A DNA stretch of 64,000 nucleotides from Escherichia phage OSYSP. The stretch's first letter is position 1; the number at the start of each line of letters is the position of its first letter. Location: the sequence record MF402939; one strand, given 5' to 3'. Positions 8,909-43,297 of the stretch are shown here, one piece after another. The notes beneath the pieces were generated by a model. That model had not been told where the DNA came from. It did no database searches and saw only the letters and a list, made by a program, of their open reading frames with translations. The translations under genes and the position numbers were made by a program.

Positions 8909-9115
8909 CTAAACTCCAGATTCTTCGGCCAAGTCTAGACTAATAAGAGTTATAGCCATAATTGCTGCACCGTGTTCTTTTTCTCCGGTGTTTTTAGCAG
9001 AGCCTATAATATCCTTAATCTGTTCGTAATAACTTTTTACTTCTTGTTCAATGCCTGCCTCGGCTATCATGCCTTTAGTCATGAATCGTTGCATGGTAAT
9101 TTCAGGATTAGCCAT
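8909..9115 (-). CDS. hypothetical protein (68 aa)
   Basis: ORF track; ATG overlaps stop of upstream small ORF (ATGGCTAA). Confidence 0.55.
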   Translation of the reverse strand: MANPEITMQRFMTKGMIAEAGIEQEVKSYYEQIKDIIGSAKNTGEKEHGAAIMAITLISLDLAEESGV

Positions 9116-9275
9116 GTTGTTTCTCCAGTTTCATTTTTAATAGTTTACAGATGAAATCAACGTCTTCATCTGTGCCTAAGTCTCTATCTTCAAGGGTCGC
9201 CTTGAAGTTTTTCGTCAATTCCATAAGGATGACTTCCCTAGAACGACGTGTTGGTGGCGGAGGAGGTCTATACAT
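9108..9275 (-). CDS. small proline-rich hypothetical protein (55 aa)
   Basis: Not in ORF track; ATG with AAGGA SD; stop overlaps next start; translation MYRPPPPPTRRSREV... Confidence 0.4.
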   Translation of the reverse strand: MYRPPPPPTRRSREVILMELTKNFKATLEDRDLGTDEDVDFICKLLKMKLEKQHG

Positions 9276-9290
9276 CTTAATTCCTTAATT

Positions 9291-9367
9291 TGGTAGGGGT
9301 GGTGGGATTCGAACCCACAAAACCTGAATTTTAAGTCCAGTACCTATGCCAATTCGATTACACCCCC
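9291..9367 (-). tRNA. tRNA, anticodon TAA (Leu UUA reader?) with short variable arm
   Basis: Acceptor GGGGGTG/CACCCCT, anticodon arm CTGGA-CTTAAAA-TTCAG, T-arm GTGGG-TTCGAAT-CCCAC, discriminator A, CCA encoded; 77 nt. Confidence 0.45.
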
Positions 9368-9474
9368 ATGTAATCAGTTTATTAGTTGATACATATTATA
9401 GCCTAAAGAAAACCCTACTACTAATCCTACGAACCAACCAATATAATAATCTTTTAATTTCACGGGTGTCAACC

Positions 9475-9654
9475 TCATTCAATATCTAGAGAAATACCAC
9501 AGGTAGGATTAATGCCTGTGCCTTTGCACGTAGGACAAACCCAGATATTACAGAATGTATCCCCTGCTTCTGCATCAGAACTTTCTCCAACTCCTAGACA
9601 GTCAGGACAGGCACATTCTTCTAGCTCTTGCTTGAGTTCTTGAAACTTAGACAT
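9475..9654 (-). CDS. small zinc-ribbon protein (59 aa, two CxxC pairs)
   Basis: Not in ORF track; ATG with AAGGA SD; translation MSKFQELKQELEECACPDCLG...CPTCKGTG. Confidence 0.45.
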   Translation of the reverse strand: MSKFQELKQELEECACPDCLGVGESSDAEAGDTFCNIWVCPTCKGTGINPTCGISLDIE

Positions 9655-9663
9655 ATAGTTTCC

Positions 9664-9852
9664 TTATTCAATTACTTTTGAGGCTTCAAGGGAGTCGATA
9701 TAGTGTACGTTTTCTACCATAATCATATAATCTGCCACTTTATCCATAGCCTGAACTTCAGAGGTAGCCCTGGCTAACCTATATCCTTTTTTATATTCAT
9801 CCGGGTATTCCCTATCTGGAATAAACACAACACAAACTAGGTATAGTTCCAC
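9664..9852 (-). CDS. hypothetical protein (62 aa)
   Basis: ORF track. Confidence 0.45.
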   Translation of the reverse strand: MELYLVCVVFIPDREYPDEYKKGYRLARATSEVQAMDKVADYMIMVENVHYIDSLEASKVIE

Positions 9853-9873: not shown

Positions 9874-9951
9874 TGGTGGCTCCCCGAGGATTCGAACCTA
9901 CGTACCTTCCGGTTATGAGCCGGGTGCTCATACCATATGAGCTTGAGAACC
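9874..9951 (-). tRNA. tRNA, anticodon CAT, initiator-like anticodon arm
   Basis: Acceptor GGTTCTC/GGGAGCC, anticodon arm CCGG-CTCATAA-CCGG followed by GAAGG as in initiator tRNA; T-stem imperfect; CCA encoded. Confidence 0.45.
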
Positions 9952-9957
9952 AGAATT

Positions 9958-10046
9958 TGGCGGAAGAAGTGGGAATCGAACCCACAAGGCTATATTTCAA
10001 ACCGACAGATTAGCAATCTGCTGCAATACCGTTATGCTATTCTTCC
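9958..10046 (-). tRNA. tRNA-Ser (anticodon GCT), type II
   Basis: Acceptor GGAAGAA/TTCTTCC, anticodon arm GCAGA-TTGCTAA-TCTGT, long variable arm, T-arm GTGGG-TTCGATT-CCCAC, CCA encoded. Confidence 0.65.
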
Positions 10047-10067: not shown

Positions 10068-10586
10068 TTAGAAATTTAGCTTCATAGCAAGAAAATTTTT
10101 CAAGTTTTCGGTAGACATCTCATCCACATCTACAGGAGAAACAAATCCATTTAATTGTCTAGCAAATTTTTCACCAGCAGGATCATTATCCCCAACAGCT
10201 ACCAATTTAAAAGGTAGTAATTTCAATTGCTTTAACAACGCTTTTCCTGGAGAAGAACCCAACATTGCCAGGGCTGGATAACCAGCGTTATGTAATGCTA
10301 CTGCCTTAAATACAGATTCAGCAATCAATACTACTTTTTCATCCCCAGTGAGGGTTTCTAGCCCCCATACACACTGTGTAGTAGAATAAGTAAAATATCT
10401 AGCTTCAAAGGGGCACTTACCATGACCTTTTGGAGCAGAAGGATTATACGTCTGATAGCCTCTCAACATCCCAGAGAAGTCATACAATGGGACTGTTAGC
10501 CATCCTTCCGGACTTAACCAGCAATGATACTTATCTGTATCAAACCCTCTAGATAAGAGATGTTCTGTTAGTTCATCAACAGTCAT
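10068..10586 (-). CDS. small Toprim-domain protein (about 172 aa)
   Basis: Start moved to ATG (MTVDEL...) after GAGAGAGG SD, because the first ATG of track ORF 10068-10637 lies inside the promoter; motifs IAESV...GSS...LVAVGDNDPAGEKFA match a Toprim fold. Confidence 0.6.
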   Translation of the reverse strand: MTVDELTEHLLSRGFDTDKYHCWLSPEGWLTVPLYDFSGMLRGYQTYNPSAPKGHGKCPFEARYFTYSTTQCVWGLETLTGDEKVVLIAESVFKAVALHNAGYPALAMLGSSPGKALLKQLKLLPFKLVAVGDNDPAGEKFARQLNGFVSPVDVDEMSTENLKNFLAMKLNF

Positions 10587-10616
10587 ATTAGATTCCTCTC
10601 TCAAATTTATAAATAT

Positions 10617-10645
10617 ATTATACAGAGAATTTAGCATTCAAGCAA
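10617..10645 (-). promoter_or_regulatory. sigma70-type early promoter (TTGCTT-17-TATAAT) with downstream ATAAATTTGAGAGAGG box
   Basis: Consensus hexamers and conserved downstream element on minus strand. Confidence 0.65.
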
Positions 10646-10790: not shown

Positions 10791-10852
10791 ATATGTTATG
10801 GATGAGTGATCAAAGAGACACACATTTTCTATATACTAGGAGGTGTCAAAAA

Positions 10853-11833
10853 ATGACAGAAGAAGTAGCTAAGAGTCCTGAAACCGTCGCTAGCGTAGCA
10901 GCAGAACTGCATCGTCACGAGGAATCAGATAAGAAAAAGTGGGAGAAAGTCAAAGCCTACGAGGAAAAACATCGTGAACACGATGAAGATGATGAAGAAG
11001 ATGACGATGATGAACATTGTCATAAATATGGAAAACATAAAATGCAAGAACCAGTAAACGTATTTACTAACGGCTTCCCTGGCATGGGTGCATTCCCAGC
11101 TAACGCAAGTGCTTTCGGTGGAGAAGGTATGGGTCTATTCGGAGCTATCCTAATCGGTGCTCTATTAACAGGCGGATTTGGTGGTTTTGGTGGTTTTGGT
11201 CGCGGTGCTGGCGTTGCCGCTGAAGGGACTGCTGTGGACGCGATCCTTTCTAACCAAGATACTGCAAGTATTCTAGCTGCAATCAATACTACTCGTACAG
11301 AAGCTAACCAGGGCACTGGGGCTGTTCTAAGCGCAGTAAACGGTGTGGGAGCTGCTCAAGCTGCTAGCACTCAGCAAGTTCTGACTACTGTCTACGGTAC
11401 AGGTGCTAATCTGTCAAACCAGATCTGTGCTGAAACTCGTAACGTTATTCAGGGTCAGTTCGATCTTTCTCGTCAGATGGATCAATCTTTCGCTGCTAAC
11501 CAGATAGCACGTGCTCAAGATAAGTTTGACTCTGCTCAGATTGCTTTCCAGCAGTCTATTCAGACTAACAACCAGTTCGCCGCTGTTCAGGCTCAGATGT
11601 GTGCTAACCAGAACGCTATCGAACGTCAGCTTGCTGAATGTTGCTGTGAGCTTCAGACTGCGATCGCTGGTGTAACTACTGCGCGTATTCAGGACGAACT
11701 GAATGAATGCCGTCTGCGTGAAGCAATCGCTCAAGGTAGTGGTGCAAATGGTCAGGTAATCAACCAAATCGCTGTAAGTCTTGGTGCTATCACTCAGACT
11801 CTGGCTGGTCTGCAGGCTAAACTGCCGGCTTAA
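10853..11833 (+). CDS. low-complexity protein (326 aa): acidic/His-rich N-terminus, Gly-rich hydrophobic segment, Ala/Gln/Asn-rich C-terminal domain
   Basis: Start set at ATG after AGGAGG (9-nt spacing) rather than track start 10793; segments EDDEEDDDDEHCHKYGKHK, GLFGAILIGALLTGGFGGFGGFGRGAG and CCC triplet; ctg/cgt/gct-biased codons; opposite strand to neighbours. Confidence 0.7.
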   Translation: MTEEVAKSPETVASVAAELHRHEESDKKKWEKVKAYEEKHREHDEDDEEDDDDEHCHKYGKHKMQEPVNVFTNGFPGMGAFPANASAFGGEGMGLFGAILIGALLTGGFGGFGGFGRGAGVAAEGTAVDAILSNQDTASILAAINTTRTEANQGTGAVLSAVNGVGAAQAASTQQVLTTVYGTGANLSNQICAETRNVIQGQFDLSRQMDQSFAANQIARAQDKFDSAQIAFQQSIQTNNQFAAVQAQMCANQNAIERQLAECCCELQTAIAGVTTARIQDELNECRLREAIAQGSGANGQVINQIAVSLGAITQTLAGLQAKLPA

Positions 11834-11854
11834 AATTAAGGGGAGGAGCCCATT

Positions 11855-12271
11855 ATGAGTAAATATGGTTTTGTAAACAACGGATTTAATCAACAAATGG
11901 GCTCCCAGCAGCCCGTTCCGGGTCTGGATAATCCTTACCTACAACAGTTGCAACAGCGTTTAGCAGAAGCTCAACAGATGCAGCAACAACTCCAGCAAAA
12001 CCCTGGAAGTGTGAGTCCTATGCAAATGATGCAGCAAATGAGCGGGCAGTCGCAAATGCCTCAACAAATGCAGCAACAGGTGCCTCAGCAGCAAGTTCAG
12101 CAACAAACCCAACAACCGCAGGTTTCTGCGGAAGGACAGGCAGTACTAGCCCTTTTCGAAGATTTCGCAAAGACAGAGGATGGGAAACAGCTTGTATCAC
12201 TTATGGGTAAGTTTAATAGCTTCTGCCAAAGCCAAGTTGCAAAAGCTCAAAATGGTGATAATAACTCCTAA
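11855..12271 (+). CDS. glutamine-rich low-complexity protein (138 aa)
   Basis: ORF track; AAGGGGAGGAG SD; long Q/M-rich tracts (QQMQQQLQQ...QQMQQQVPQQQVQQQTQQPQ). Confidence 0.65.
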   Translation: MSKYGFVNNGFNQQMGSQQPVPGLDNPYLQQLQQRLAEAQQMQQQLQQNPGSVSPMQMMQQMSGQSQMPQQMQQQVPQQQVQQQTQQPQVSAEGQAVLALFEDFAKTEDGKQLVSLMGKFNSFCQSQVAKAQNGDNNS

Positions 12272-12280
12272 GGAGGAATT

Positions 12281-12475
12281 ATGTGTTGCAGAAAATCTGT
12301 TTCGTGCTGCCCAATGCCTGTAGCACGTTGTTGCTCTCCAGCAATGTTTACACAAATACCGGCGTTCAATCCCTTTGCCTTTAAGCCTATTCTTATCCTG
12401 CCCCCTAGAGTAGATTTTCAGTCAAGATTGGCCTCCCGTATGGGTGGTTGCTGTAACAAGAGTATATGGTTCTAA
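12281..12475 (+). CDS. small cysteine-rich protein (64 aa; CC doublets)
   Basis: ORF track; AAGGAGG SD; MCCRKSVSCCPMPVARCCSP...GGCCNKS; followed by an intrinsic terminator. Confidence 0.55.
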   Translation: MCCRKSVSCCPMPVARCCSPAMFTQIPAFNPFAFKPILILPPRVDFQSRLASRMGGCCNKSIWF

Positions 12476-12595: not shown

Positions 12596-13543
12596 TTACT
12601 TGTTACGCATATCCATGATCATTTGACCATCATAGCCAGTGCCAACTACAGTCTGAGGTACACCACCTTGATATTTCTGAGCACGAATCATCTCAACTTC
12701 CAGTTGTTTCCAACGAATCATCTCAGGAGTAATGGTACGTTGCAGTGCGGCGTTAGCTTCAGCTTCTTTCTTAGCTGCGTACAGTTTAGCATCTGCGTCA
12801 CGTTCATTAGCAATAGCTTGGTTATTGCGAGCTTCACGATCTGCTTCTGCTTGTTTAACTTTTTGCTGTGCTTCCTGTTCAACGCGGGCAAGTTCAGCTT
12901 TCGCAGCGTTAACTTGCTCTTCACGAACTTTGGTATTCTGTACCTGTTCCATGATTACCGGTGGCAAAGTAATATCTTGAAGAAACACCTGCTTAACTGT
13001 GTAACCATATGGGCGTGCATACTCTTCAACTTCCTGTTGAATTGCAGTTTGCAATTGAGCCTGAATTTTAGCATCAAACAAATCTTGTGCTTTAGGTACA
13101 GACTTACCAAACTCACAAATAGTAGATAGTAATTTTTCAGTTACATATTTGTCTAACGCTTGATCCTGAGTACCTGCATTAATACGGTTAATCGGTGCCT
13201 TAGAACCATCAAACTGCAACATAACAGTCAGATCAACAGTGGATTTAAACTTATCCTGACTAGGAACCTGAAGTTTATCTAATTTTACAGCAATATCTTT
13301 TGTACTAAAAGTATCGAAAGATGCAAACGGGTTTACAATATGGAAACCAGGTAATACTGGATTAGGGTCTACTTTACCCAGGAATGTTTGAGTTTTAACC
13401 GTACCATCAGAAACAATAGTATATGAATTAAAAGCTAGGATTAAACCTGCTAAACCAACTACAGCACCAATACCCCAACGTTTAATAGTGCGAATTACTT
13501 TTTGCTCAGAAGTCAGTTCTTTCATATTTTTAGTATTAAACAT
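12596..13543 (-). CDS. SPFH/band-7 (HflK/HflC-like) membrane protein
   Basis: 315 aa; N-terminal hydrophobic helix (IGAVVGLAGLILAF), then SPFH-like core and long Ala/Glu/Gln-rich coiled coil; AAGGA SD. Confidence 0.6.
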   Translation of the reverse strand: MFNTKNMKELTSEQKVIRTIKRWGIGAVVGLAGLILAFNSYTIVSDGTVKTQTFLGKVDPNPVLPGFHIVNPFASFDTFSTKDIAVKLDKLQVPSQDKFKSTVDLTVMLQFDGSKAPINRINAGTQDQALDKYVTEKLLSTICEFGKSVPKAQDLFDAKIQAQLQTAIQQEVEEYARPYGYTVKQVFLQDITLPPVIMEQVQNTKVREEQVNAAKAELARVEQEAQQKVKQAEADREARNNQAIANERDADAKLYAAKKEAEANAALQRTITPEMIRWKQLEVEMIRAQKYQGGVPQTVVGTGYDGQMIMDMRNK

Positions 13544-14152: not shown

Positions 14153-14230
14153 CTTACCGACCGTAGGATTCGAACCTACATCTTCCACCAGTTACGGCTT
14201 GATAATACCAATTATACTAGGACGGCAGTG
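14153..14230 (-). tRNA. tRNA-like element, non-canonical (no foldable anticodon stem)
   Basis: T-arm GTAGG-TTCGAAT-CCTAC, D-loop-like AATTGGTA, acceptor GCCGTCC/GGTCGGT with one mismatch; no anticodon arm can be formed. Confidence 0.3.
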
Positions 14231-29885: not shown

Positions 29886-30702
29886 ATTAATTATTATCAG
29901 TGGTGCAGGTTTGAGTGTTGAAAGCGGTGTACGAGCCTTCCGTACTGATACTGCTAGTGGTAAAGCATTGTGGGATGATTATGATTTAGAAGAGGTATGT
30001 AGTATTCATGCCTTTCGTGGTAACTTTTATCATAAAACCCATATGTTTTACAACAAGCGACGTGAAGAGCTAAAAACTGTTGAGCCTAACCTTGCGCATC
30101 TTCGTATTGGTGAGTGGTATAAGAAATATCCGGGTCAAGTAGTAAATTTGACTACTAACGTTGATGACCTTATTGAGCGTGCTGGTGTTCCCCATAATGA
30201 TATTCTCCACATTCATGGATACTTAAAGGAGGTTGTTGTAGCTGATAGCTACAATAGTAGTAATAAACGAATTATTGATGTTGGGTATAACTCTATTGAT
30301 CCGGATGATTATAAATGGGTTAAACCTAATGTAATCTTCTTTGGGGAGCATGCTCCAGCGTACGCAGAAATGTACAATATTTTTGATGGTATTACCAGTC
30401 AAGATATGGTCGTTGTAGTTGGTTGCTCTAACCAAGTAATTAACTTCTACTGGGAATTATTCCCTGTTCTTAACCGTACTGCTGCGAAACTTATGGTGGT
30501 TAACTACTACGATAGTGCCCTAGCGGCAGAACCAGGTTATCAAGGTATGACTCGTAGTGAGATGTACCAGTTGGAAGAACGCGGTATCCCCTACTGGAGT
30601 AAAGGTGCGGTAGATGCTTTCAGTGATCCTGGTTTTATTGCTCGTGTAGAAGCTCATCTAGAGGGTAGACCTTATATGCCGGGAAAACAGATATGTCCAT
30701 AG
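29878..30702 (+). CDS. Sir2 (sirtuin)-like NAD-binding protein
   Basis: 274 aa; N-terminal IISGAGLSVESGVRAFR matches the sirtuin GAGxS..SGIP.FR NAD-binding motif; TTNVDDL and HIHG motifs; no zinc-binding Cys pairs seen. Confidence 0.6.
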   Translation: MRRLIIISGAGLSVESGVRAFRTDTASGKALWDDYDLEEVCSIHAFRGNFYHKTHMFYNKRREELKTVEPNLAHLRIGEWYKKYPGQVVNLTTNVDDLIERAGVPHNDILHIHGYLKEVVVADSYNSSNKRIIDVGYNSIDPDDYKWVKPNVIFFGEHAPAYAEMYNIFDGITSQDMVVVVGCSNQVINFYWELFPVLNRTAAKLMVVNYYDSALAAEPGYQGMTRSEMYQLEERGIPYWSKGAVDAFSDPGFIARVEAHLEGRPYMPGKQICP

Positions 30703-30875
30703 TTAAATCTGTGTATACACATCCAGATGATATATTTGTATGGGCGGATGGTAGTTGGTGCTATCGATGTGAGTTATGGGAAATGGACTATAAATCTGAT
30801 GACTATGGTGTCATATATGTTGATACGGTTGAGTATGATACGTTCTTAGAAAGGGACAAAAATGGAAATAAGTAA
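30693..30875 (+). CDS. hypothetical protein (60 aa)
   Basis: ORF track; overlaps both neighbours by a few nt. Confidence 0.4.
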   Translation: MSIVKSVYTHPDDIFVWADGSWCYRCELWEMDYKSDDYGVIYVDTVEYDTFLERDKNGNK

Positions 30876-31368
30876 TACTCCAATTATTTTTCTAGATATT
30901 GATGGGGTGCTCAACTCGAGCATCTCCCATCACCATGCACCTGATGATGAAAAGATTTTCTTTGGAAGTGACTGGGTTTTTAAACCGCTTCTCAAGGCTT
31001 TTCAGGACTTTATTCGTCCTTCCCCAATAATGATTGTTGGGGTATCTTCATGGTTCTCTGTCAGGAATGAGATGGAGAACGTTCAGATTATGACCGGATT
31101 AGATCTTATCGATCGTTTTCTTGGTACAACGGATTTTACTGGTGGTGGGCTATCTAGGGGTAATTCTGTTCTTCGCTTCGTTGAAAAACACAAGCTCAAA
31201 CATTGGTGTGTGCTGGATGATGCTGGTGCTATGATGTATCAGTATCCAACGGTTATAGTCAATGGTAGAACTGGAATAAATCTTCAAGATTTAAGAGCTG
31301 TTAGCTATATGTTAGAATTTAGTCCAGATCTTGAAATGTGTAAAGCCCTACAACAATTTAAGGTGTAA
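30862..31368 (+). CDS. HAD-superfamily phosphatase-like protein (possible deoxynucleotide monophosphatase)
   Basis: 168 aa; N-terminal FLDIDGVL motif (DxDx(T/V) nucleophile) typical of HAD hydrolases. Confidence 0.55.
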   Translation: MEISNTPIIFLDIDGVLNSSISHHHAPDDEKIFFGSDWVFKPLLKAFQDFIRPSPIMIVGVSSWFSVRNEMENVQIMTGLDLIDRFLGTTDFTGGGLSRGNSVLRFVEKHKLKHWCVLDDAGAMMYQYPTVIVNGRTGINLQDLRAVSYMLEFSPDLEMCKALQQFKV

Positions 31369-31370
31369 AT

Positions 31371-31799
31371 ATGTTCAATAATGTATTCTCTAAAGAGGCT
31401 AACCCGATATTGGTTAATTTTTGGCGTACTCTTCCAGCCAACCTGTACAATGAGGCTATTAATGCTCTGAAAATATGGTGTGAGAATAATGAAATCTCCT
31501 TTGCTTTTAAAGGCGAGATTGAGGAGGCTCCCTGTATTGGTTTAATTGTGCAGGTGGAGGATGGTCTTGAAGAGATTGTCGGCTGGAAAGAGTTGGATGA
31601 AATGGGCTTGGTTTTTGCGTTAAACTATAAGCTATTTATGCCCAATAAACACCGTATTGTTGTTAACTATAAAACCAATGAATCTCCTGGTTTTCAAGTT
31701 AATGAACGGTATGGTTGGTCTTACTCACCAGAAGAAGTAAATGATGGTATCCAAAAACTTCGTCGTTTTGGTTATCAAATTCCGGGTTTAACCGCCTAA
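31371..31799 (+). CDS. hypothetical protein, paralog A (142 aa)
   Basis: ORF track; AAGGTG SD; shares PCIG...W.ELD.MGL..ALN..LF.P motif with next ORF. Confidence 0.6.
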   Translation: MFNNVFSKEANPILVNFWRTLPANLYNEAINALKIWCENNEISFAFKGEIEEAPCIGLIVQVEDGLEEIVGWKELDEMGLVFALNYKLFMPNKHRIVVNYKTNESPGFQVNERYGWSYSPEEVNDGIQKLRRFGYQIPGLTA

Positions 31800-31808
31800 G
31801 GGGGCACA

Positions 31809-32207
31809 ATGGAACAAGTATATTGGCGTCAGATTGATCCTAGTTTGGTGAAGCGTGCGGAGAAGCTGCTACAACGTTGGTTGGGGGTAAGACAAGCCTC
31901 CTTCACTTTTCCGGAGCAGCAAATAGACGATCCCTGTATTGGTGTTTTCCTATCAGGCTACGCTAGGGAATGGGAATGGGAATTGGATTGGAATGAGTTG
32001 TCTGCTATGGGTTTAATTGTTGCCCTAAATTTCTCTTTGTTCCATCCACGTGGTTTGGCTATATGTCGTATGCCTGATGATGGTTGTTCACCCCATCTTT
32101 TACAGGTGGAAGATGATATTTGGGAGTACACTCCAGATATTCTCAAAGAAGCTAAAGAACAGTTAAACCATGTTGGGATCTATGTTCCAGGCTTGAATGA
32201 TGAATGA
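31809..32207 (+). CDS. hypothetical protein, paralog B (132 aa)
   Basis: ORF track; AAGGGGG SD; similar to preceding ORF. Confidence 0.6.
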   Translation: MEQVYWRQIDPSLVKRAEKLLQRWLGVRQASFTFPEQQIDDPCIGVFLSGYAREWEWELDWNELSAMGLIVALNFSLFHPRGLAICRMPDDGCSPHLLQVEDDIWEYTPDILKEAKEQLNHVGIYVPGLNDE

Positions 32208-32231
32208 TTTTTATTAGCTGAACTCTGATTA

Positions 32232-32256
32232 CCGAGTCATTTTGGCTCGGTTTTAT
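32232..32256 (+). terminator. possible intrinsic terminator
   Basis: CCGAG-loop-CTCGG hairpin followed by TTTTAT. Confidence 0.35.
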
Positions 32257-32298
32257 CCGTACTCAAGACCAATGATAGCACCATCCGGAAAATTTTAC

Positions 32299-32327
32299 TT
32301 GCAGGATGCCCAAAATCTTGATATAAT
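32299..32327 (+). promoter_or_regulatory. sigma70 promoter (TTGCAG-17-TATAAT, extended -10 TGATATAAT)
   Basis: Hexamers read directly; followed by about 500 nt of ORF-free leader. Confidence 0.6.
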
Positions 32328-32826
32328 ATTTATATTGAATTGAGAGACATTAGTAAAAATTGATTTTGCTAATTTTTCTTGTTTACAATCCGCGATACGG
32401 AACAGTTAGGCTGCCCCATTAAGGGTTGTTTTAACTGTTACGTGTTAGTTTTTAAACAAATAATTAATAGAATACTTAGCGATCTGCGTCCCGTAGGAAC
32501 CCTGGTAAGGCCTCGAAGCAACCTAGATAGAGGTGGTTGTGAAGTGAGACGGGAGGAGTGAAAAACTCCGAGACGTGATTCTGTAAGTTATATTGCATCT
32601 AGTATGAGCTAGTATATGAAGCATTAGGTGAGCAAATCTGGCTTAGCGGCCATCCTCAAGGATTTGTGCGGTATAGCAAAGCAGCAGCGCAGCGTGAAAG
32701 TGGAAGTTGCCACCCCACTTCAGTATTTGCGATTAATTTGTTGAGAAATTGACAGTAACAGTTGTTCTATTCTTTCTGAATAGTCCTAAAGAAAACTTAT
32801 TTCATTTCCAATACAGGAGTATTGTT

Positions 32827-35616
32827 GTGTTTTCAATCCTACAAGGTCATGCAGGATTTCATCGCGATTTAGCCACAGGCAATTGGCGAGAAGTTAAGGC
32901 AGAAGATTATCTTTTTGCTAAAAGATTTTCCTCAAAGCATCCTGAAGGTAAACCAGCTTCAATGCCCTTCAAGTTTGATGTAATTGACGAAGTTGATCCT
33001 CAAACCCTAGTAGAAATGCTTCCTCTTATGAGACGTTTAACGTCTGATCCTCATATCGTTGCGGTACGAGGTAGATGTCTTGCACCTAAAAATAATGTGC
33101 GACGTAAGAAGGGCAACTTTAATGTATCTAATCCAAGTCATATAATCGCAATGGATGTGGATGGTATTGTAGATACAGGAGGTTGTAACAAGTTTGATCT
33201 TGTTGGCATGGCGCGTCATATTATTAGGATGTTGAATAGTATTAGTGAGGATATGTTTCCTCTTGATGCAGGGTTTATTGCTCATGCATCGTCTTCGGCT
33301 GGACTAAAACCAGGTATCCGAATGCATTTAATACTAGAATCTAATGTTAAAGTTACACAGGGTCAGATCAAGTTCTTATTTACATCTATCAACGAAAGTA
33401 GTAGACAAAAGTATGGTTTTGATATTGCCGACTTAGCTTATTACTCTTCAGTACAGCTCCACTATTTTGCAGATCCTTTATTTATTGATGGTATAGTTGA
33501 TCCGTTTAAAGCGGAGGATGCTTCACGTCTGGTATTTGTTAAGGGTTCTAAAGTAAATTTACCTAATAATCTAGTTGACTATGAAACAACTAGAGGGGAG
33601 TTTAAAGAGGAATTCTACTCTTTACTCGATCAAATTAAAGGTAAAAAAGCTGCCTCTGATAAAGTAGAAGAAACCATCAGCGAGTTAGAGGAAGCTGAGG
33701 ATGGTGTATATCTACGTATTATTCCTAAACTCTATCACCGAGCACTAGAGGATGGTGTAGATTTTGGTTGGCTAGAGAAGGAGATCCGCCCAGCTTTATC
33801 TGAGTATATTGCAACTAAAGATAATAGTCGTAATATTCAGGATTATTTTAATAACGGTCGAAAACAGGCTCTGAAAGCATTTGTTAATAATTCTAAACGT
33901 GATATACCTGATGTTTTAAAAGGTATTCCACTTAAAAAGCTAGAAACTAACTCTCTAGAAACAGATAATTTCTTGAAATTAAACACTGTGCCACCAGAAG
34001 GTTATATGACTTTTGTAAAAGCAAGTCTAGGTACAGGTAAAACCACGGCGGTTGTGCGTTGGTTAGATTCAGGAGTTATTAAAGGTAATTTCTTAGCAAT
34101 TACCAATACTAGGGCACTGGTGTCTTCAAATGCCAAGAAATTTAGTGCAGGACAATATGATAAGTCTGTAGATATGCTTAATTTTAAGCGTGGTGCTATT
34201 GACCGTATGTCCACAACTATCCACTCTTTACATAAGTTTAAGAGTTTTATTGGTCAAATTGATGCAATCTTTATCGATGAATGTGATGCAGTAATGAATG
34301 ACCTATTATTCGCCCCGGTTGTTAAGCAACGTCGTGAGTGTATTCAGGTTCTTCGTGATATTCTTGCAACTGCAAAAATCATTATACTATCCGATGGTGA
34401 TATTAGTGCGGAAACAATTGAAGCATATGGTTCTTTGATTGAGTTCGATAAACCAGTTGCATTCTATAATCATCACCGTAAGATGCTGTCAAAAGCCCAC
34501 GCTTATGAGTTTCCAGATGAATCCAGTATTTGGGTTGCACTTCAGACTTCTCTAGAGATGGGGGAGAAATCTATTCTAGTATCTGATTGTGGCCCTGATG
34601 AGCTGAATGAGAAGGGTATGGCACTGCGTCGTAACACGGGTGCGTTAGTTAAGGAAATCCATTCAAACTCTACCTCAGATGTGGATATTCGACGTATTCT
34701 GGATTATACAACTAATGAGCTAATTGATCAACAAATTGATTGCTTATTATGTAGTCCATCCGTAACGAGCGGTGTTGACTTCAACTATTTTGATAACGTA
34801 TTCGTTATTACTAGAACCAGTAATCAAGCGCCAAACATGCGTTTTCAAGCAATCAGGCGCGACCGTGGTGCTCAGAATATCTATTATTTTATTGATAAAT
34901 CCACTAGTGGGTTCTCTGCAGGTTCTGAACAATATAATATTGATGAAGGTTGGCTGGAGTTAGCACAGCAATTATACGCACGTCGTAGAGAGCTGGAATC
35001 TAGAAACTATACTAGTACCTTACGGTATTACTTGCTTGATCAGGGTGCAACTATTGATATTTTCAGCGAAAGCTGGGGAACTATTGAAGGTGCTGGTAAA
35101 GAATATACAGAAGAGCGAATCAAAGCTATTCTGCATTCAACTCCAGATTATTGTGCCCCACGTCATGCAGATGCATATGAAGCTAAACTACTTCTTGTTC
35201 GCTATTATCATCTTGAGTCTATTAAAGATGTAACAGTTGAGCATGTTGAACAATATATCAAAGATAAACCGAATGATCGAGCTGCATTCTTCCATAAGAT
35301 GCACGAGATGTTCTGGGAAGATATTAAAAAGTGTTCAAATGTGACCATTAAACCATTCATAGAGGCTCTGAAAGGTAAGAAGAAAGACTTCTTCCTTAAA
35401 ACAGGTCAGAGTGCTAACCCAAAATATGCTAGAATGTATCTTGGTATGATGGGTATTGGTAAGGATATGAACACTGAAAATATCGTAGACTGGTATAGAA
35501 CCTATTGTAAAATCGAGTGTATGCCAATTCCATATAAGTTCATGACTGACGAGGAAAAACATATGCACGATGAAGCAATGTCAGAGCTAGGTGCTAGAAA
35601 TGACAGTGAAGAATAA
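32827..35616 (+). CDS. large DExD-box NTPase/helicase-like protein (putative replication origin-binding type)
   Basis: Walker A LGTGKTT, Walker B IFIDECD, downstream CSPSVTSGVDF; start tentatively GTG at 32827 after AGGAG (track start is ATG 32749). Confidence 0.7.
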   Translation: MFSILQGHAGFHRDLATGNWREVKAEDYLFAKRFSSKHPEGKPASMPFKFDVIDEVDPQTLVEMLPLMRRLTSDPHIVAVRGRCLAPKNNVRRKKGNFNVSNPSHIIAMDVDGIVDTGGCNKFDLVGMARHIIRMLNSISEDMFPLDAGFIAHASSSAGLKPGIRMHLILESNVKVTQGQIKFLFTSINESSRQKYGFDIADLAYYSSVQLHYFADPLFIDGIVDPFKAEDASRLVFVKGSKVNLPNNLVDYETTRGEFKEEFYSLLDQIKGKKAASDKVEETISELEEAEDGVYLRIIPKLYHRALEDGVDFGWLEKEIRPALSEYIATKDNSRNIQDYFNNGRKQALKAFVNNSKRDIPDVLKGIPLKKLETNSLETDNFLKLNTVPPEGYMTFVKASLGTGKTTAVVRWLDSGVIKGNFLAITNTRALVSSNAKKFSAGQYDKSVDMLNFKRGAIDRMSTTIHSLHKFKSFIGQIDAIFIDECDAVMNDLLFAPVVKQRRECIQVLRDILATAKIIILSDGDISAETIEAYGSLIEFDKPVAFYNHHRKMLSKAHAYEFPDESSIWVALQTSLEMGEKSILVSDCGPDELNEKGMALRRNTGALVKEIHSNSTSDVDIRRILDYTTNELIDQQIDCLLCSPSVTSGVDFNYFDNVFVITRTSNQAPNMRFQAIRRDRGAQNIYYFIDKSTSGFSAGSEQYNIDEGWLELAQQLYARRRELESRNYTSTLRYYLLDQGATIDIFSESWGTIEGAGKEYTEERIKAILHSTPDYCAPRHADAYEAKLLLVRYYHLESIKDVTVEHVEQYIKDKPNDRAAFFHKMHEMFWEDIKKCSNVTIKPFIEALKGKKKDFFLKTGQSANPKYARMYLGMMGIGKDMNTENIVDWYRTYCKIECMPIPYKFMTDEEKHMHDEAMSELGARNDSEE

Positions 35617-35833: not shown

Positions 35834-35842
35834 AAAATTTAT

Positions 35843-35871
35843 TTGCTTTCAGGAAAATTTTTCTGTATAAT
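35843..35871 (+). promoter_or_regulatory. sigma70 promoter (TTGCTT-17-TATAAT) with ATAAATTTGAGAGAGGAG box
   Basis: Consensus hexamers. Confidence 0.65.
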
Positions 35872-35902
35872 AGATTCATAAATTTGAGAGAGGAGTTTAA
35901 AT

Positions 35903-37365: not shown

Positions 37366-37401
37366 TTTTAGATAAATCCACCAACAAAAGGAACTATAGC
37401 T

Positions 37402-40937: not shown

Positions 40938-42410
40938 ATGACCTTGTTTAACGTGCAAGCTGTAGTGTTGAAGATGCTTCTAGCTTCCGAACAGAAGCAA
41001 ATAGCATTGGAAACATTCTCAAAACTGCATAAAGATCATTTTAATGACGCTTTCTCCTCAATTTACCAAGCCGTCCAGAATTATTATAAAAAATATAACA
41101 CAATGCCGTCCATTGACGCACTGATGCTTGAGGCTAATAGGAACGCCCGCCTTTCTCAAGCTCTAGTCGTTTTAGCTAACACTCAAATTCCAGAAGTTAG
41201 CATGGAACAGGCACTTGAAGTCCTAGAGGCCGAGTATACACAGGATTTATTCCTGAAGCTTCTAGAAACAGACGTGCTTCAAGATTTAACAATGCTGGAT
41301 CAGGGAGAAATTCTTAACCGAGTTGCCTCCCTTCACTTAAAATTAGAAGAGAAAGTAACGAATACTGGAAAAGTATTCAACGCAGATAATATGCGTATTT
41401 TCCAGAGAGAAGAAGATACCAAACTGAACTTAATCGCTCTTGGTATTTGTAATGAGTTCGACGCTCAAATTGGTTTAGCTCGCACAGAAACGTTACTGCT
41501 TGGTGGTTGGCGTGGTACTGGTAAATCCATTATCTGTTCAAACATACAGGTTCAGCAATATTTGAATGGGGATATTGCTCCATACTTCTCAATTGAGATG
41601 AAAGAACATGAAGTATTTAGACGTAATCTAGCCATGTTAGCTGGTGTATCAGCACTAGCAATGCGTAATAATACTCTAGAAGGTGCAGCTCTGTTGAGAT
41701 TAGCCAGAACTAGAGCTAGGATGTTTAACGGTGGTGAAGAGCTCTTCGATAACTTCGTTAAACAGTATACAATGGCTAAGATGAGTGATTTCTACGACAT
41801 GGAGAGTAAGCTAATAGAAGGGTATGAGCTACATACTCCTATGATTATTGTTTATGACCCTGAGCTGTCTATTACAACAGTTGACGTAGAATTAAATAAA
41901 TTAGTTGCTAGATATGGGGATAAAGTTACAGTAGCTTTACTGGACTATATTAACCAAACCCGACTTCCAGACTCTAAAACCATTGATATGTATGACTGGA
42001 AAGAACAGATGGTTGTTAGCTCGTCTTTCAAATCTATCTGCCAGAAACATAACGTGGCTGGTGTAGCTCCTTACCAGATTGATCAAGATGGTAGAACACG
42101 TATGTCAAAAGGGATTCTTGATTCCGCAGACATGGCTGCTAATCTTAATGCTGCAAAAGCTGATAATGGTCAAGGTGCTATTATGTTTGACTTCGTTAAG
42201 ACTCGTTCTTCTGATAGCGTGAAGTTTATGCCTAAAATGAACTGGGAAACCCTGCGGATGGATAACACTACCAACCTAGCAATGGAAGATATATCTCAAA
42301 TGGAAGCTGAGTTCGTTATCCCTATTGAGAAGGATAAGCCGGCTCAATCTAAACGTGCTAAGAAAGACAAAGCTGAAAATTCAACAGGTGAACAGGCCAG
42401 CGATATATGA
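40938..42410 (+). CDS. DnaB-like replicative helicase
   Basis: Walker A GGWRGTGKS and RecA-like core; start uncertain (ATG 40938 after AAAGGAGA, or ATG 40887 inside the terminator hairpin). Confidence 0.7.
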   Translation: MTLFNVQAVVLKMLLASEQKQIALETFSKLHKDHFNDAFSSIYQAVQNYYKKYNTMPSIDALMLEANRNARLSQALVVLANTQIPEVSMEQALEVLEAEYTQDLFLKLLETDVLQDLTMLDQGEILNRVASLHLKLEEKVTNTGKVFNADNMRIFQREEDTKLNLIALGICNEFDAQIGLARTETLLLGGWRGTGKSIICSNIQVQQYLNGDIAPYFSIEMKEHEVFRRNLAMLAGVSALAMRNNTLEGAALLRLARTRARMFNGGEELFDNFVKQYTMAKMSDFYDMESKLIEGYELHTPMIIVYDPELSITTVDVELNKLVARYGDKVTVALLDYINQTRLPDSKTIDMYDWKEQMVVSSSFKSICQKHNVAGVAPYQIDQDGRTRMSKGILDSADMAANLNAAKADNGQGAIMFDFVKTRSSDSVKFMPKMNWETLRMDNTTNLAMEDISQMEAEFVIPIEKDKPAQSKRAKKDKAENSTGEQASDI

Positions 42411-43297
42411 GTAGAATAACAGAACTACTTGATCTGAAAGGCATTGAATATAAAGACACAGGTGGGGACATCCTCATCTGTTGTCTCAATCCAGATCATG
42501 ACGATAAACACCCAAGTTTGCGTATTGACCCTGAAACAGGTATTATGCACTGCTTGAGTTGTGGCTTCGGTAAAGGTATACCGAGCATTTACCATTATTT
42601 TAATGAGACTCAGTACCGACAGTCCCCAAGGCTATCGCAAGTACGTAAAAAGATTTCAGAGATTAGGAATGGATCAACGAATCTTGCAATTCCTGAATCT
42701 GCTTACCTTTTCGAAGGTGATTTCCGAGGTATAAGTTCTAAGACCTTGAAGAAATATTTTGCTTTCCAACACCAAGCAGACTGGGAAGGCAGAATTGTAT
42801 TCCCAATCACAGATGCTGTTGGACGCAATATCCTATTTTTGGGTCGTTCTATAAACAGTTCTGCCCCTCCTAAATACTTAGTAAAACCAAAACAAGTTTC
42901 ACCGCCAATTTTTCCTGTACGATATAATACTCCAGTCCTTATTCTAGTTGAAGGCATCTTTGATATGCTGAACCTAGAGGATAATGGTATAGACTATGCT
43001 TCTTGCTGCTTTGGTACACATCAGTTTACTTCGGATAACATTGCAGATAAGTTCAGTCCTTATATTATCGCCGGTGTAAAAGTTGTTGTTATCTTACTAG
43101 ATAATGATGCTTCTGGTAATAAAGCTGCCCAGGCTCTAGCAAAATTAATTCGTACAAAAACACGTTTAACACCTGTAGTTGCTAACTTCTTACTTCCAGA
43201 GGGTAAGGATCCTGGTGATTTAAATAAAGAAGAAGTCGATACGTTAGCAAAACGTATTGAAATTTTAGTTGCTGAATCACTTAAAGATTTGGTATAA
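42407..43297 (+). CDS. DnaG-like DNA primase (zinc-binding plus Toprim)
   Basis: 296 aa; zinc motif CCLNPDHDDKHPS...HCLSCGFGKG; Toprim motifs ILVEGIFDML and LLDNDASGNKAAQ; ATGA overlap with helicase. Confidence 0.8.
   Translation: MSRITELLDLKGIEYKDTGGDILICCLNPDHDDKHPSLRIDPETGIMHCLSCGFGKGIPSIYHYFNETQYRQSPRLSQVRKKISEIRNGSTNLAIPESAYLFEGDFRGISSKTLKKYFAFQHQADWEGRIVFPITDAVGRNILFLGRSINSSAPPKYLVKPKQVSPPIFPVRYNTPVLILVEGIFDMLNLEDNGIDYASCCFGTHQFTSDNIADKFSPYIIAGVKVVVILLDNDASGNKAAQALAKLIRTKTRLTPVVANFLLPEGKDPGDLNKEEVDTLAKRIEILVAESLKDLV

What the first reader, a model, noticed from the sequence alone, without database searches (positions are those of the whole stretch)
10068..10586. Second, small Toprim-domain protein in addition to the DnaG-like primase
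The 172-aa protein carries an invariant-Glu segment (IAESV) and a DxD segment (LVAVGDNDPAGE) typical of Toprim folds, with a Cys/His-containing N-terminal segment. Small stand-alone Toprim proteins can be nucleases or primase accessory factors; its position beside the foreign-looking cassette is notable.
Basis: partly seen in the sequence, partly recalled or inferred. Interest (0 to 1): 0.35.

Follow-up and report, generated by a model that had tools for sequence, protein, structure and literature searches.

The report
T5 Rad: primase-like anti-retron protein
This small gene in a T5-like phage is the already described "Rad/ORF75" protein, a stripped-down copy of a DNA primase's catalytic core that helps the phage escape bacterial retron defences rather than replicate DNA; how it does this is still unknown.

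Summary
A 172-aa ORF on the minus strand (10068-10586) has its own sigma-70-like promoter and ribosome-binding site. It carries the Toprim Glu (E90, IAESV) and DxD (D133/D135) motifs. A complete DnaG-type primase with a zinc ribbon lies elsewhere in the window (42407-43297).

The gene is not new. It is the ortholog of T5 ORF071 and SP15 ORF75 (96-99% identical, same synteny), which the literature names Rad, "retron anti-defense".

This analysis adds four points:
- The whole protein, not only the Toprim half, models as a minimal DnaG RNA-polymerase domain (pLDDT 94.5). It has no zinc ribbon and no helicase-binding domain.
- The acidic residues are invariant or nearly invariant across 67 homologs. 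Two primase residues are replaced family-wide (inferred DnaG D269 to K94, R221 to Y47).
- The family is large (409 clusters at E<=1e-10) and mostly stand-alone proteins of 160-190 aa. None of the 20 longer proteins scanned had a helicase or DnaG zinc-ribbon partner.
- It lies at the edge of or inside same-strand tRNA arrays in 13 of 34 sequence clusters, often with NAD-salvage genes nearby.

The mechanism is unresolved: a preprint proposes degradation of the retron ncRNA, and the peer-reviewed version leaves it open. Verdict: already known, modest interest.

The parts
10068..10586 (-). CDS of 172 aa. Ortholog of Rad / SP15 ORF75 / T5 ORF071 / BF23 'ORF trn 2.1'. It is a minimal DnaG-type RNA-polymerase domain (N-terminal subdomain plus Toprim). 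Key residues: R13, Y47, R63-Y64, E90, K94, D133, D135, D153, D155, E156.
   Evidence: ORF and motifs. Pfam and PHROG matches. Identity of 95.8-99.5% to the SP15 and BF23 genes. T5 annotation. AF2 model with pLDDT 94.5. Fold matches to DnaG, T7 gp4 and Twinkle. Conservation.
10617..10645 (-). Sigma-70-like early promoter: -35 TTGCTT (10645-10640), 17-nt spacer, -10 TATAAT (10622-10617). It contains the upstream ATG (10637) of the mis-called 189-aa form.
   Evidence: Sequence read directly. BF23 record annotates promoter P15a at the equivalent place. The consensus scan reports an overlapping weaker site; the number of sites found in the region is no more than shuffles give, so the support comes from homology to the annotated BF23 promoter.
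10593..10600 (-). Ribosome-binding site GAGAGGAA, 6 nt before the ATG at 10586.
   Evidence: BF23 annotates a ribosome_binding_site for ORF trn 2.1 at the equivalent place.
9958..10046 (-). tRNA-Ser (GCT), 21 nt downstream of the stop codon on the same strand. It is the first gene of the downstream tRNA array. Co-transcription with the CDS is inferred, not shown.
   Evidence: ARAGORN, Rfam, spacing. T5, SP15 and BF23 have the same arrangement.
9877..9951 (-). Second downstream tRNA, annotated tRNA-Met or tRNA-Ile2 (AUG) in relatives. ARAGORN missed it; Rfam found it.
   Evidence: Rfam RF00005, 40.3 bits, E=6.7e-6. Annotated at the equivalent place in BF23, SP15 and T5.
42407..43297 (+). For contrast only, not part of the feature: the phage's complete DnaG-type primase (CHC2 zinc ribbon, DNAG_N, Toprim), between the DnaB-like helicase (40887-42410) and the DNA polymerase (43360-45927).
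   Evidence: Pfam and PHROG matches. Sequence. Profile alignment to the Rad family.

Best explanation
The gene is the ortholog of Rad (retron anti-defense; SP15 ORF75, T5 ORF071), an early, dispensable counter-defence gene of T5-like phages.

**What it is.** The protein is a DnaG-primase catalytic core reduced to about 170 residues. It has the N-terminal subdomain and the Toprim fold. It lacks the zinc-binding domain that selects priming sites and the domain that docks on the helicase. It keeps an intact, strongly conserved metal-binding acidic pocket: E90, D133/D135, D153/D155/E156.

**How it most likely works.** The mechanism is inferred from a preprint's indirect data and is not shown here. 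The protein is made early from its own promoter at the head of the phage tRNA operon. It uses the pocket to bind and process a nucleic-acid component shared by retrons: the msr-msd non-coding RNA, or the msDNA derived from it. This lowers msDNA levels and stops several retrons from aborting infection.

**Shown versus inferred.** Orthology, fold, motif conservation, gene context and dispensability are shown here or taken from the literature. The anti-retron phenotype comes from the literature. The chemistry (nuclease, polymerase or binder) and the true substrate are inferred.
For: **Orthology.**
- 95.8% identical over 189 aa to SP15 gp147, the only 189-aa 'DNA primase' in the SP15 tRNA-rich region.
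- 99% identical to the copy in a 121,750-bp IMG/VR contig. I take this to be T5 from its length, from memory.
- Same synteny as T5 AAX12008.1, which is ORF071 by its position between ORF070 and ORF072.
- 99.5% identical to BF23 'ORF trn 2.1; putative DNA primase-related protein'.
- The residues mutated in the Rad preprint (R13, P33, I88, D135, E156) are exactly the residues at those positions in the 172-aa numbering.

**Function from the literature.**
- ORF75 is the determinant that lets SP15 and T5 evade retrons Eco2 and Eco7 (peer-reviewed, PMC11555353).
- The preprint reports that Rad lowers msDNA and msr-msd RNA but not RT or effector mRNA. It also reports that it blocks Ec67, Ec78, Ec83, Ec48 and Se72, and that a Proteus phage homolog works too.
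- BF23 paper: T5 ORF071, 'previously annotated as primase... later established as Rad'.
- PMC12673091 calls it 'the anti-defense protein Rad'.

**Structure.**
- AF2 model: pLDDT 94.5, pTM 0.90.
- Best solved matches are DnaG RNA-polymerase domains (1dde: 170 columns, rmsd 2.7, TMq 0.65), T7 gp4, Twinkle and T4 gp61, all at probability 1.00.
- A family profile hits the E. coli DnaG core at E=1.7e-4, aligning the EG and DGD motifs.
- hhalign to the window's own primase aligns the K/R-Y, E, DxD and D..D motifs.

**Active-site conservation.**

**Not a replisome part.**
- There is no zinc ribbon.
- The phage and Kagunavirus each have a separate complete primase.
- Among the 150 best representative hits, most are stand-alone proteins of 160-190 aa. 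The 20 longer ones scanned show fusions to CCA-adding enzyme, Arr, Mom, HAD, GNAT, ParB_N and others, never to a helicase or a DnaG zinc ribbon.
- Neighbourhoods are tRNA arrays, NAD salvage and small unknown genes.
- SP15m and T5n, which lack the ~8-kb tRNA-rich region, still propagate, and SP15m is stated to lack Rad. T5Mos (deletion 30661-38625) probably lacks it as well.
Against: **The mechanism is not established.**
- The preprint's evidence is indirect (gel and qPCR under over-expression). It reports no in-vitro nuclease assay.
- Single substitutions of presumed catalytic residues (D135H, E156H) only 'slightly reduced' activity. That is unexpected for a strictly catalytic Toprim mechanism.
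- In retron Eco2 and in a type I-A retron (strain FORC 82), loss of msDNA is what activates the effector. How lowering msDNA would protect the phage therefore needs explanation.
- A T5 stock carrying ORF75 does not evade the FORC 82 type I-A retron, so the activity is not universal.

**Other cautions.**
- The fold is that of a polymerase, not of a known nuclease.
- In Guernseyvirinae the homolog sits right after an SNF2 helicase in the replication module.
Confidence: 0.55

Rival explanations
1. It is a tRNA-directed, or more generally structured-RNA-end, processing or repair enzyme. In this reading the primase-derived core trims or fills in RNA ends such as tRNA acceptor stems or tRNA precursors, working alongside CCA-adding enzymes. 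It would rescue phages from retrons because their effectors attack tRNAs. The loss of retron ncRNA would be a side activity.
For: **Position relative to tRNA arrays.**
- The gene is at the edge of or inside same-strand tRNA arrays in T5-likes (21 nt from tRNA-Ser).
- The same holds in 12 other sequence clusters at 34-45% identity, including contigs of 141-197 kb.
- In all 15 of the 54 non-T5 IMG/VR loci that have any tRNA within 10 kb, the nearest one is within 804 nt and every tRNA is co-oriented with the gene.

**Links to tRNA enzymes.**
- Fusions to CCA-adding enzyme occur in both orders (P0178, P0199). In L015 the rest of the CCA enzyme is the next gene.
- In Vibrio phage F96 the gene overlaps the 3' end of a tRNA nucleotidyltransferase gene.
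- A peptidyl-tRNA hydrolase gene overlaps it upstream in L013.
- There is a HAD-phosphatase fusion.

**Targets of the retrons concerned.** Retron Eco2 nicks tRNA acceptor stems 6-7 nt from the CCA end, and Eco7 degrades tRNA-Tyr.
Against: - The preprint reports rescue from retrons Ec48 and Se72 as well, which the preprint describes as retrons of distinct groups, and a direct drop in msDNA without phage.
- The tRNA adjacency could simply reflect clustering of counter-defence genes. NAMPT and NMNAT-Nudix genes co-occur in 11 and 9 of 34 clusters.
- A CCA-adding enzyme was detected within 10 kb in only 1 of 34 clusters.
- 21 of 34 clusters have no tRNA nearby.
- No enrichment statistic could be computed, because the rest of each genome was not examined.
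Confidence: 0.15
2. It is a non-catalytic, or only weakly catalytic, binder. The primase template-binding groove would hold msDNA, ncRNA or the RT complex. This would block retron assembly, or shield msDNA from the phage nucleases that trigger retrons.
For: - Single active-site substitutions reduce activity only slightly; several combined are needed to abolish it.
- DnaG catalytic cores bind single-stranded DNA (PDB 3b39 is among the fold matches).
- Retrons Eco2 and FORC 82 fire when phage nucleases cut msDNA, so protecting msDNA would be an effective counter-measure.
Against: - The acidic metal ligands are invariant or nearly so across 67 diverse homologs. That points to selection for catalysis.
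- The preprint sees less msDNA, not protected msDNA.
Confidence: 0.15
3. It is a second or accessory primase subunit for replication. In this reading it is a catalytic core that receives a zinc-binding domain in trans from the 296-aa primase, or that primes without one.
For: - It has the full DnaG RNA-polymerase-domain fold.
- It retains the inferred equivalents of DnaG R146 (R13), K229-Y230 (R63-Y64) and five acidic ligands (plus my own numbering of DnaG from memory).
- In Kagunavirus and a related 42-kb Salmonella phage the homolog directly follows an SNF2 helicase in the replication module.
- Trans-complementation of zinc-binding and polymerase domains is known for T7 gp4 and DnaG (from memory).
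Against: - SP15m and T5n, which lack the region carrying the gene, still propagate; T5Mos probably lacks it too.
- There is no zinc ribbon and no helicase-binding domain.
- None of the 20 longer homologs scanned is fused to a helicase or a DnaG zinc ribbon.
- Two residues that are conserved in the primases compared here are replaced in the whole family (D269 to K94, R221 to Y47).
- Most gene contexts are not replicative.
- Kagunavirus also has its own helicase-primase.
Confidence: 0.05

Closest known systems
Rad (retron anti-defense) = phage SP15 ORF75 = T5 ORF071 (AAX12008.1) = BF23 ORF trn 2.1 (CAE53203.1)
   Same: It is the same gene. Identity is 95.8-99.5%. Length, promoter and ribosome-binding site match. 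The position is the same: upstream of tRNA-Ser and tRNA-Met, back-to-back with the ORF072-073-kapc cassette, with the Band 7 gene and tRNA-Arg beyond. The residues mutated in the Rad study are present.
   Different: Nothing of substance differs. Many database records, and the preprint, use a 189-aa form whose start codon lies inside the promoter. The preprint's own residue numbering fits the 172-aa form.
RNA-polymerase domain of DnaG-type primases (E. coli, M. tuberculosis and A. aeolicus DnaG; T7 gp4; T4 gp61; Twinkle)
   Same: It has the same two-subdomain fold over nearly the whole protein. The motifs align: HLxxRG with the start of the DnaG core, [KR]-Y, the Toprim Glu, DxD, and the third acidic motif D-x-D-E.
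   Different: - It has no CHC2 zinc ribbon, no C-terminal helicase-interaction domain and no fused helicase.
- The N-terminal subdomain is about 50 residues shorter.
- The Asp of the EGxxD motif is an invariant Lys (E-[SG]-V-F-K-A).
- The residue at the place of DnaG R221 is a nearly invariant Tyr.
- It is dispensable, and its known phenotype is anti-defence rather than priming.
Toprim nucleases (RNase M5; the OLD / AriB / GajA / retron-Eco2 Toprim effectors)
   Same: It shares the Toprim fold with a Glu plus DxD metal site. RNase M5 is the best non-primase structural match (E=4e-3). The proposed action on structured RNA would resemble RNase M5. Retron Eco2, PARIS and OLD Toprim domains all cut tRNAs.
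   Different: - Only the Toprim half matches (TMq 0.44, about 95-105 columns).
- There is no ABC-ATPase domain or partner gene.
- The N-terminal half is primase-type.
- Nuclease activity has not been demonstrated for this family in anything I could read.
Stand-alone DnaG-like proteins without a zinc finger (Mycoplasma MG010 type, TIGR00646) and archaeal DnaG of the exosome
   Same: These are primase-core proteins that have lost the zinc finger and are not the replicative primase. Archaeal DnaG acts on RNA (abstract of PMC4227792).
   Different: The similarity is very weak: 20 bits against a cut-off of 260 for TIGR00646. This is an analogy of architecture, not membership.

Membership tests
Rad / ORF75 anti-retron family of T5-like phages | Sequence orthology to SP15 ORF75 and T5 ORF071 | tested here: met
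   95.8% identity over 189 aa to SP15 gp147. 99.5% to BF23 trn 2.1. 95-99% to 25 T5-like IMG/VR contigs.
Rad / ORF75 anti-retron family of T5-like phages | Same genomic position in the tRNA-rich early region | tested here: met
   The order tRNA-Met, tRNA-Ser, gene, divergent three-ORF cassette, Band 7, tRNA-Arg is found in the window and in T5, SP15 and BF23.
Rad / ORF75 anti-retron family of T5-like phages | Residues whose mutation weakens Rad (R13, P33, I88, D135, E156) | tested here: met
   All five are present at those positions in the 172-aa numbering.
Rad / ORF75 anti-retron family of T5-like phages | Anti-retron activity (rescue of phage on Eco2/Eco7 hosts; lower msDNA) | not testable with these tools
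   Literature only. Not universal: no evasion of the FORC 82 retron.
DnaG-type DNA primase | CHC2 zinc-binding domain | tested here: not met
   There is no Zn_ribbon_DnaG hit, whereas the window's 296-aa primase has one. The Cys and His residues are not conserved.
DnaG-type DNA primase | RNA-polymerase domain fold (N-terminal subdomain plus Toprim) | tested here: met
   Foldseek probability 1.00 to 5w34, 1dde, 2au3, 1nui and 8dvf. 170 aligned columns at rmsd 2.7 to 1dde. Profile hit to the E. coli core at E=1.7e-4.
DnaG-type DNA primase | Full set of active-site residues (EGxxD, DxD, DPD acidic residues; basic R146, R221, K229) | tested here: inconclusive
   E90, D133, D135, D153, D155, R13 and R63 are present. 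The D269 equivalent is an invariant Lys and the R221 equivalent a nearly invariant Tyr. The R146, R221 and D345/D347 correspondences rest partly on my numbering of DnaG from memory.
DnaG-type DNA primase | Helicase-interaction domain or fused helicase; place in the replisome gene module | tested here: not met
   The protein ends about 15 residues after the third acidic motif. None of the 20 longer homologs scanned has a helicase fusion. In T5-likes the gene is about 30 kb from the helicase-primase-polymerase block. Exception: in Guernseyvirinae it is adjacent to an SNF2 helicase.
DnaG-type DNA primase | Template-directed oligoribonucleotide synthesis | not testable with these tools
   Needs a biochemical assay.
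Pfam Toprim_2 (PF13155) | Score at or above the gathering threshold | tested here: met
   24.3 bits against 22.1.
OLD-family / ATPase-coupled Toprim nucleases | ABC-ATPase domain or partner plus a Toprim nuclease | tested here: not met
   There is no ATPase domain in the protein. None was found among the immediate neighbours of 33 cluster representatives.
RNase M5 | Toprim domain plus a C-terminal rRNA/L18-binding domain; whole-protein similarity | tested here: not met
   Only the Toprim half aligns (TMq 0.44, E=4e-3). The rest is primase-type.

The most novel reading that the evidence does not exclude
The Rad family may not be a dedicated retron inhibitor. It may be a widespread phage RNA-end enzyme derived from a primase core, either a nuclease or a short-patch polymerase with a remodelled active site (Lys for Asp, Tyr for Arg). 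Its native substrates would be tRNAs or tRNA-like helices. It would mature or repair tRNA acceptor ends together with CCA-adding enzymes. The retron phenotype would then follow either because retron effectors attack tRNAs or because the ncRNA resembles its substrate.
Probability: 0.15. Interest if true: 0.7.

Novelty: already known. Interest (0 to 1): 0.3.

Why it matters
**Why the gene matters.** Among the papers searched here, Rad/ORF75 is the phage gene reported to disable several retrons. Retrons are both a common bacterial defence and a genome-editing tool. The gene's mechanism is explicitly unresolved in the peer-reviewed literature.

**What this analysis gives experimenters.**
- The protein is a whole primase catalytic core with a specifically remodelled but strictly conserved active site.
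- It belongs to a very large family of stand-alone proteins.
- It sits at the head of tRNA arrays and next to NAD-salvage genes in many unrelated large phages.

These points suggest concrete mutants (K94D, Y47R, E90A, DxD) and concrete substrates to test (ncRNA, msDNA, nicked tRNA).

**Consequence for annotation.** 'DNA primase' is a misleading product name for this gene, and the 189-aa start is probably wrong.

Tried and rejected
- **Single-sequence search of PDB sequences.** Only chance hits such as xylanases. A family profile was needed to reach DnaG.
- **First word-based homolog search.** It found only 9 proteins. The profile search and the exhaustive search were needed to see the family.
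- **Split or truncated primase gene.** The PHROG 849 match covers profile positions 143-337 of 435, which suggested a fragment. I rejected this because the 160-190 aa size is conserved across most of the best hits, and the protein models as a compact, complete domain.
- **Zinc site in the N-terminus.** Rejected, because the Cys and His residues are not conserved.
- **Polyvalent-protein Toprim primases (Iyer et al. 2017).** That paper states these primases are found on conjugative elements and never in phages, so it does not describe this family.
- **General association with CCA-adding enzymes.** It was seen in fusions and in Vibrio phages, but in only 1 of 34 clusters within 10 kb by tblastn. 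I kept it as a lead, not a rule.
- **Rigorous enrichment statistic for tRNA adjacency.** Not possible, because only 10-kb flanks were available and the tRNA content of the rest of each genome is unknown.
- **NCBIfam.** Only a far-sub-threshold hit to MG010.
- **Later mechanistic paper on Rad/ORF75.** Not found. Searches up to mid-2026 returned none.
- **Residue-level structural superposition.** The model's coordinates could not be inspected, so the D269/K94 and R221/Y47 correspondences rest on sequence and profile alignments.
Full report
**What the window is.** The window is the early region of a T5-like phage (Tequintavirus).
- The 3 kb around the finding is 98% identical to phage chee24 and related isolates and matches 446 phage records, mostly Salmonella and Escherichia T5-likes.
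- ARAGORN finds 23 tRNA genes between 899 and 13652, all on the minus strand. Rfam adds one at 9877-9951.

**The observation.**
- The ORF lies on the minus strand. The mechanical ORF runs 10068-10637 (189 aa).
- The upstream ATG at 10637 sits between a -35 TTGCTT (10645-10640) and a -10 TATAAT (10622-10617) separated by 17 nt. The ATG at 10586 has GAGAGGAA 6 nt upstream.
- The BF23 tRNA-region record annotates promoter P15a, a ribosome-binding site and a 172-aa CDS at the same place, named 'ORF trn 2.1; putative DNA primase-related protein'. T5 AY587007 also has a 172-aa 'DNA primase'.
- IAESV is at residues 88-92 and LVAVGDNDPAGE at 128-139.
- Pfam Toprim_2 passes its gathering score (24.3 against 22.1 bits, E=4.1e-5). 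PHROG 849 'DNA primase' matches at E=8.4e-62.
- The other primase is real. ORF 42407-43297 (296 aa) has the CHC2 zinc ribbon, DNAG_N and Toprim. It lies between a DnaB-like helicase and a family-A polymerase.

**Identity of the gene.**
- The protein is 99.5% identical to BF23 trn 2.1 and 95.8% identical over 189 aa to SP15 gp147, which is annotated 'DNA primase' and lies in the SP15 tRNA-rich region.
- A 2023 preprint named SP15 ORF75 'Rad (retron anti-defense)'. [quoted passage not shown]
- Its point mutants R13E, P33T, I88T, D135H and E156H match the residues at exactly those positions in the 172-aa numbering of the window protein. In the 189-aa numbering only two of the five match.
- The T5 record shows the same synteny as the window. 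The order is tRNA-Met, tRNA-Ser, the gene, the divergent ORF072/ORF073/'kapc' cassette, a Band 7 protein and tRNA-Arg.
- The peer-reviewed version (Nat Commun 2024) confirms that ORF75 lets SP15 and T5 evade retrons Eco2 and Eco7. [quoted passage not shown]
- A later structural paper refers to 'the anti-defense protein Rad'. Another shows that a T5 stock with ORF75 does not evade the FORC 82 type I-A retron.
- I found no later mechanistic paper.
- The gene is dispensable. SP15m and T5n lack the ~8-kb tRNA-rich region yet still propagate, and SP15m is stated to lack Rad. T5Mos (deletion 30661-38625), if in the same coordinate system as AY587007, would lack it too.

**Anatomy of the protein.**
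- An alignment of 67 homologs (34-88% identical) gives these invariant residues: L34, G43, Y64, G75, F93, K94, G132, D135, G138, D153, D155 and E156. Present in at least 90% are H9, L10, R13, Y47, P49, E90, D133, H99 and S150, among others.
- AlphaFold2 with this alignment gives a confident single-domain model: pLDDT 94.5, pTM 0.90.
- The best solved-structure matches are all DnaG-type RNA-polymerase domains. They are M. tuberculosis, E. coli (1dde: 170 columns, rmsd 2.7, TMq 0.65), A. aeolicus, S. aureus, T7 gp4, Twinkle and T4 gp61. RNase M5 matches only through its Toprim half, at TMq 0.44.
- Among predicted viral structures, the closest full-length ones are the 165-aa 'DNA primase' of Proteus phage Privateer and the 173-aa one of Providencia phage PSTCR5. 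The Privateer protein is the homolog the preprint found active.
- A profile of the family hits the E. coli DnaG core (E=1.7e-4). The family Glu aligns with the EGYMD motif and GDND with DGD.
- hhalign against the window's own primase aligns R63-Y64 with K-Y, E90 with the Toprim Glu, D133/D135 with DND, and D153..E156 with DPGD.
- Using my own numbering of E. coli DnaG (from memory, consistent with the fragment printed), the correspondences are:
  - R13 = R146
  - P33 = P207
  - Y47 = R221
  - R63-Y64 = K229-Y230
  - E90 = E265
  - K94 = D269
  - D133/D135 = D309/D311
  - D153/D155 = D345/D347
- The family thus keeps most of the primase active site but has two fixed replacements. An invariant Lys stands where the EGxxD motif of the primases compared here has Asp, and a nearly invariant Tyr stands where DnaG has R221.
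- The motif E-S-x-x-K-A also resembles the Toprim motif of type IA topoisomerases. This is from memory and is a lead, not a test.
- I read this as an active site under strong selection for a chemistry that differs from ordinary priming. That reading is an inference.

**Size and spread of the family.**
- The exhaustive profile search found 1508 representative clusters at E<=1e-3, 409 at E<=1e-10 and 45 at E<=1e-30. Most of the best 150 are stand-alone proteins of 160-190 aa.
- The small size is therefore the native state, not a truncation.
- The 20 longer proteins scanned carry other domains:
  - CCA-adding or poly(A)-polymerase head domains, in both orders (P0178, P0199)
  - Arr-type ADP-ribosyltransferase (P0136, P0186)
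  - Mom (P0215, P0245)
  - a HAD hydrolase (P0194)
  - GNAT, cytidylyltransferase, ParB_N and a DUF3268 zinc domain
- None carries a helicase or a DnaG zinc ribbon.

**Gene context.**
- In Kagunavirus and a related 42-kb Salmonella phage, a 171-aa homolog (48% identical) follows an SNF2-type helicase in the replication module. Kagunavirus also has a separate 755-aa 'replicative helicase-primase'.
- In Vibrio phage F96 the gene overlaps the end of a tRNA nucleotidyltransferase gene.
- Six metagenomic contigs with 35-45% identical homologs show accessory neighbourhoods:
  - L009 (197 kb) and L011 (67 kb) have the gene inside arrays of 17 and 13 tRNAs.
  - L013 has a peptidyl-tRNA hydrolase gene overlapping it upstream.
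  - L010 has a Band 7 gene and a CCA-type gene upstream.
  - Several have NMNAT-Nudix genes, and L009 also has NAMPT.
- A scan of IMG/VR gave 79 loci: 25 T5-like and 54 others.
  - Of the 54, 15 have tRNAs within 10 kb.
  - In all 15 the nearest tRNA is within 804 nt, usually within 250 nt, and every tRNA is on the gene's strand.
  - In most of these loci the gene has 0-5 tRNAs upstream and up to 22 downstream.
- After clustering at 80% identity (34 clusters including the T5-likes), the counts within 10 kb are as follows:

| Neighbour | Clusters (of 34) |
|---|---|
| tRNA array adjacent | 13 |
| NAMPT | 11 |
| NMNAT-Nudix | 9 |
| Band 7 | 6 |
| PTH2 | 3 |
| CCA-type enzyme | 1 |

- The immediate neighbours have no recurrent replisome genes.
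- The family is therefore typically part of accessory or counter-defence regions, often at the 5' edge of a tRNA operon.
- I could not compute a proper enrichment, because only flanks were available.

**Mechanism.**
- The best-supported account is that this is Rad. It is made early, and its primase-derived, metal-binding core acts on a retron nucleic acid (ncRNA or msDNA). This lowers msDNA and blocks several retrons, as the preprint reports.
- Weaknesses of that account:
  - The data are indirect, and the mechanism was dropped on publication.
  - Single active-site mutants are only mildly defective.
  - In Eco2 and in the FORC 82 type I-A retron, msDNA loss is the activating signal.
  - The effect is not universal.
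- Rivals:
  - A tRNA or RNA-end processing or repair enzyme. This is supported by the tRNA-array position, the CCA-enzyme fusions, the PTH2 adjacency, and the fact that Eco2 nicks acceptor stems and Eco7 degrades tRNA-Tyr.
  - A mainly non-catalytic binder of msDNA or ncRNA.
  - An accessory primase, which I consider unlikely.

**Verdict.** The feature is already known as Rad/ORF75, so it is not novel. The open mechanism, the remodelled active site and the recurrent position at tRNA arrays are what remain interesting.

Noticed in passing
window 10587-10637 (minus strand): Many GenBank/RefSeq records (for example SP15 gp147), and the Rad preprint, use a 189-aa form. Its ATG lies between the -35 and -10 of the gene's own promoter. 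The 172-aa start has the ribosome-binding site, and the preprint's mutant numbering fits only the 172-aa form. The product name 'DNA primase' is also misleading.
   Followed up: yes
window 10793-12475 (+): A divergent three-ORF cassette (346/326 aa, 138 aa, 64 aa). Its GC is 0.43-0.49 against 0.36-0.40 nearby. The proteins are Gly/Ala- and Gln-rich with no Pfam match. The first two match PHROGs of unknown function (8119, 7894). Relatives annotate them spuriously as 'antitermination protein Q' and 'cAMP-dependent protein kinase'. The cassette is conserved in T5, BF23 and SP15 and ends at a bidirectional terminator and a genome nick site in the BF23/T5 records.
   Followed up: partly
window 9877-9951 (-) and 14155-14226 (-): Rfam finds tRNAs here (40.3 and 35.5 bits) that ARAGORN did not report. 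The first corresponds to the tRNA-Met/Ile2 annotated in T5, SP15 and BF23. The second lies in the stretch that BF23 annotates as 'RNAX, stable RNA with unknown functions'.
   Followed up: partly
L007 3034-3529 (Dickeya phage JA29); L084-L094 (Erwinia jumbo phages, ~260 kb): In these jumbo phages the Rad-like gene is split by a frameshift, at about residue 77-86 in most of those examined, just before the Toprim Glu motif. Both halves keep the family motifs (RYFT; ESVFKA, GDND, DLDE). This is seen in 11 IMG/VR loci and corresponds to PHROGs 14043 and 17952. It could be an inherited pseudogene, a two-piece protein or a programmed frameshift.
   Followed up: partly
P0178, P0199, P0136, P0186, P0215, P0245, P0194, P0212, P0255, P0182 (metagenomic proteins); L014, L015: The Rad-like domain is fused to CCA-adding/poly(A)-polymerase heads (both orders), Arr-type ADP-ribosyltransferase, Mom, HAD hydrolase, GNAT, ParB_N, cytidylyltransferase and a DUF3268 zinc domain. 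In L015 the rest of the CCA enzyme (HD plus tRNA_NucTran2_2) is the next gene.
   Followed up: partly
window 12596-13543 (-); L009, L010, L053, L062, L078: A Band 7/SPFH membrane-protein gene recurs within 10 kb of Rad-like genes in 6 of 34 clusters. NAMPT recurs in 11 of 34 and NMNAT-Nudix (NAD salvage) in 9 of 34. The order NAMPT, Rad-like gene, tRNA array repeats in several large-phage contigs.
   Followed up: partly
L008 9550-9909; L012 9490-9921: ARAGORN predicts tmRNA-like genes (tag peptides ANDNEIVQDFALAA and VAANDNEVAYALAA) about 3.5 kb downstream of the Rad-like gene in two metagenomic phage contigs. L008 also has a PTH2 gene nearby, and L012 a ribosomal-protein-S21 gene.
   Followed up: no
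window 9108-9852 (-) compared with BF23 AJ604530 9166-9849: Where the old BF23 record has the HNH homing endonuclease hegA (F-TflIV), this window has only short ORFs (55, 59 and 62 aa). One is Cys-rich with a weak Anti-TRAP-like zinc-ribbon hit. Separately, the 2023 BF23 genome paper reports that its BF23 stock lacks ORF071-075, while AJ604530 contains the gene. Laboratory stocks evidently differ in this region.
   Followed up: no
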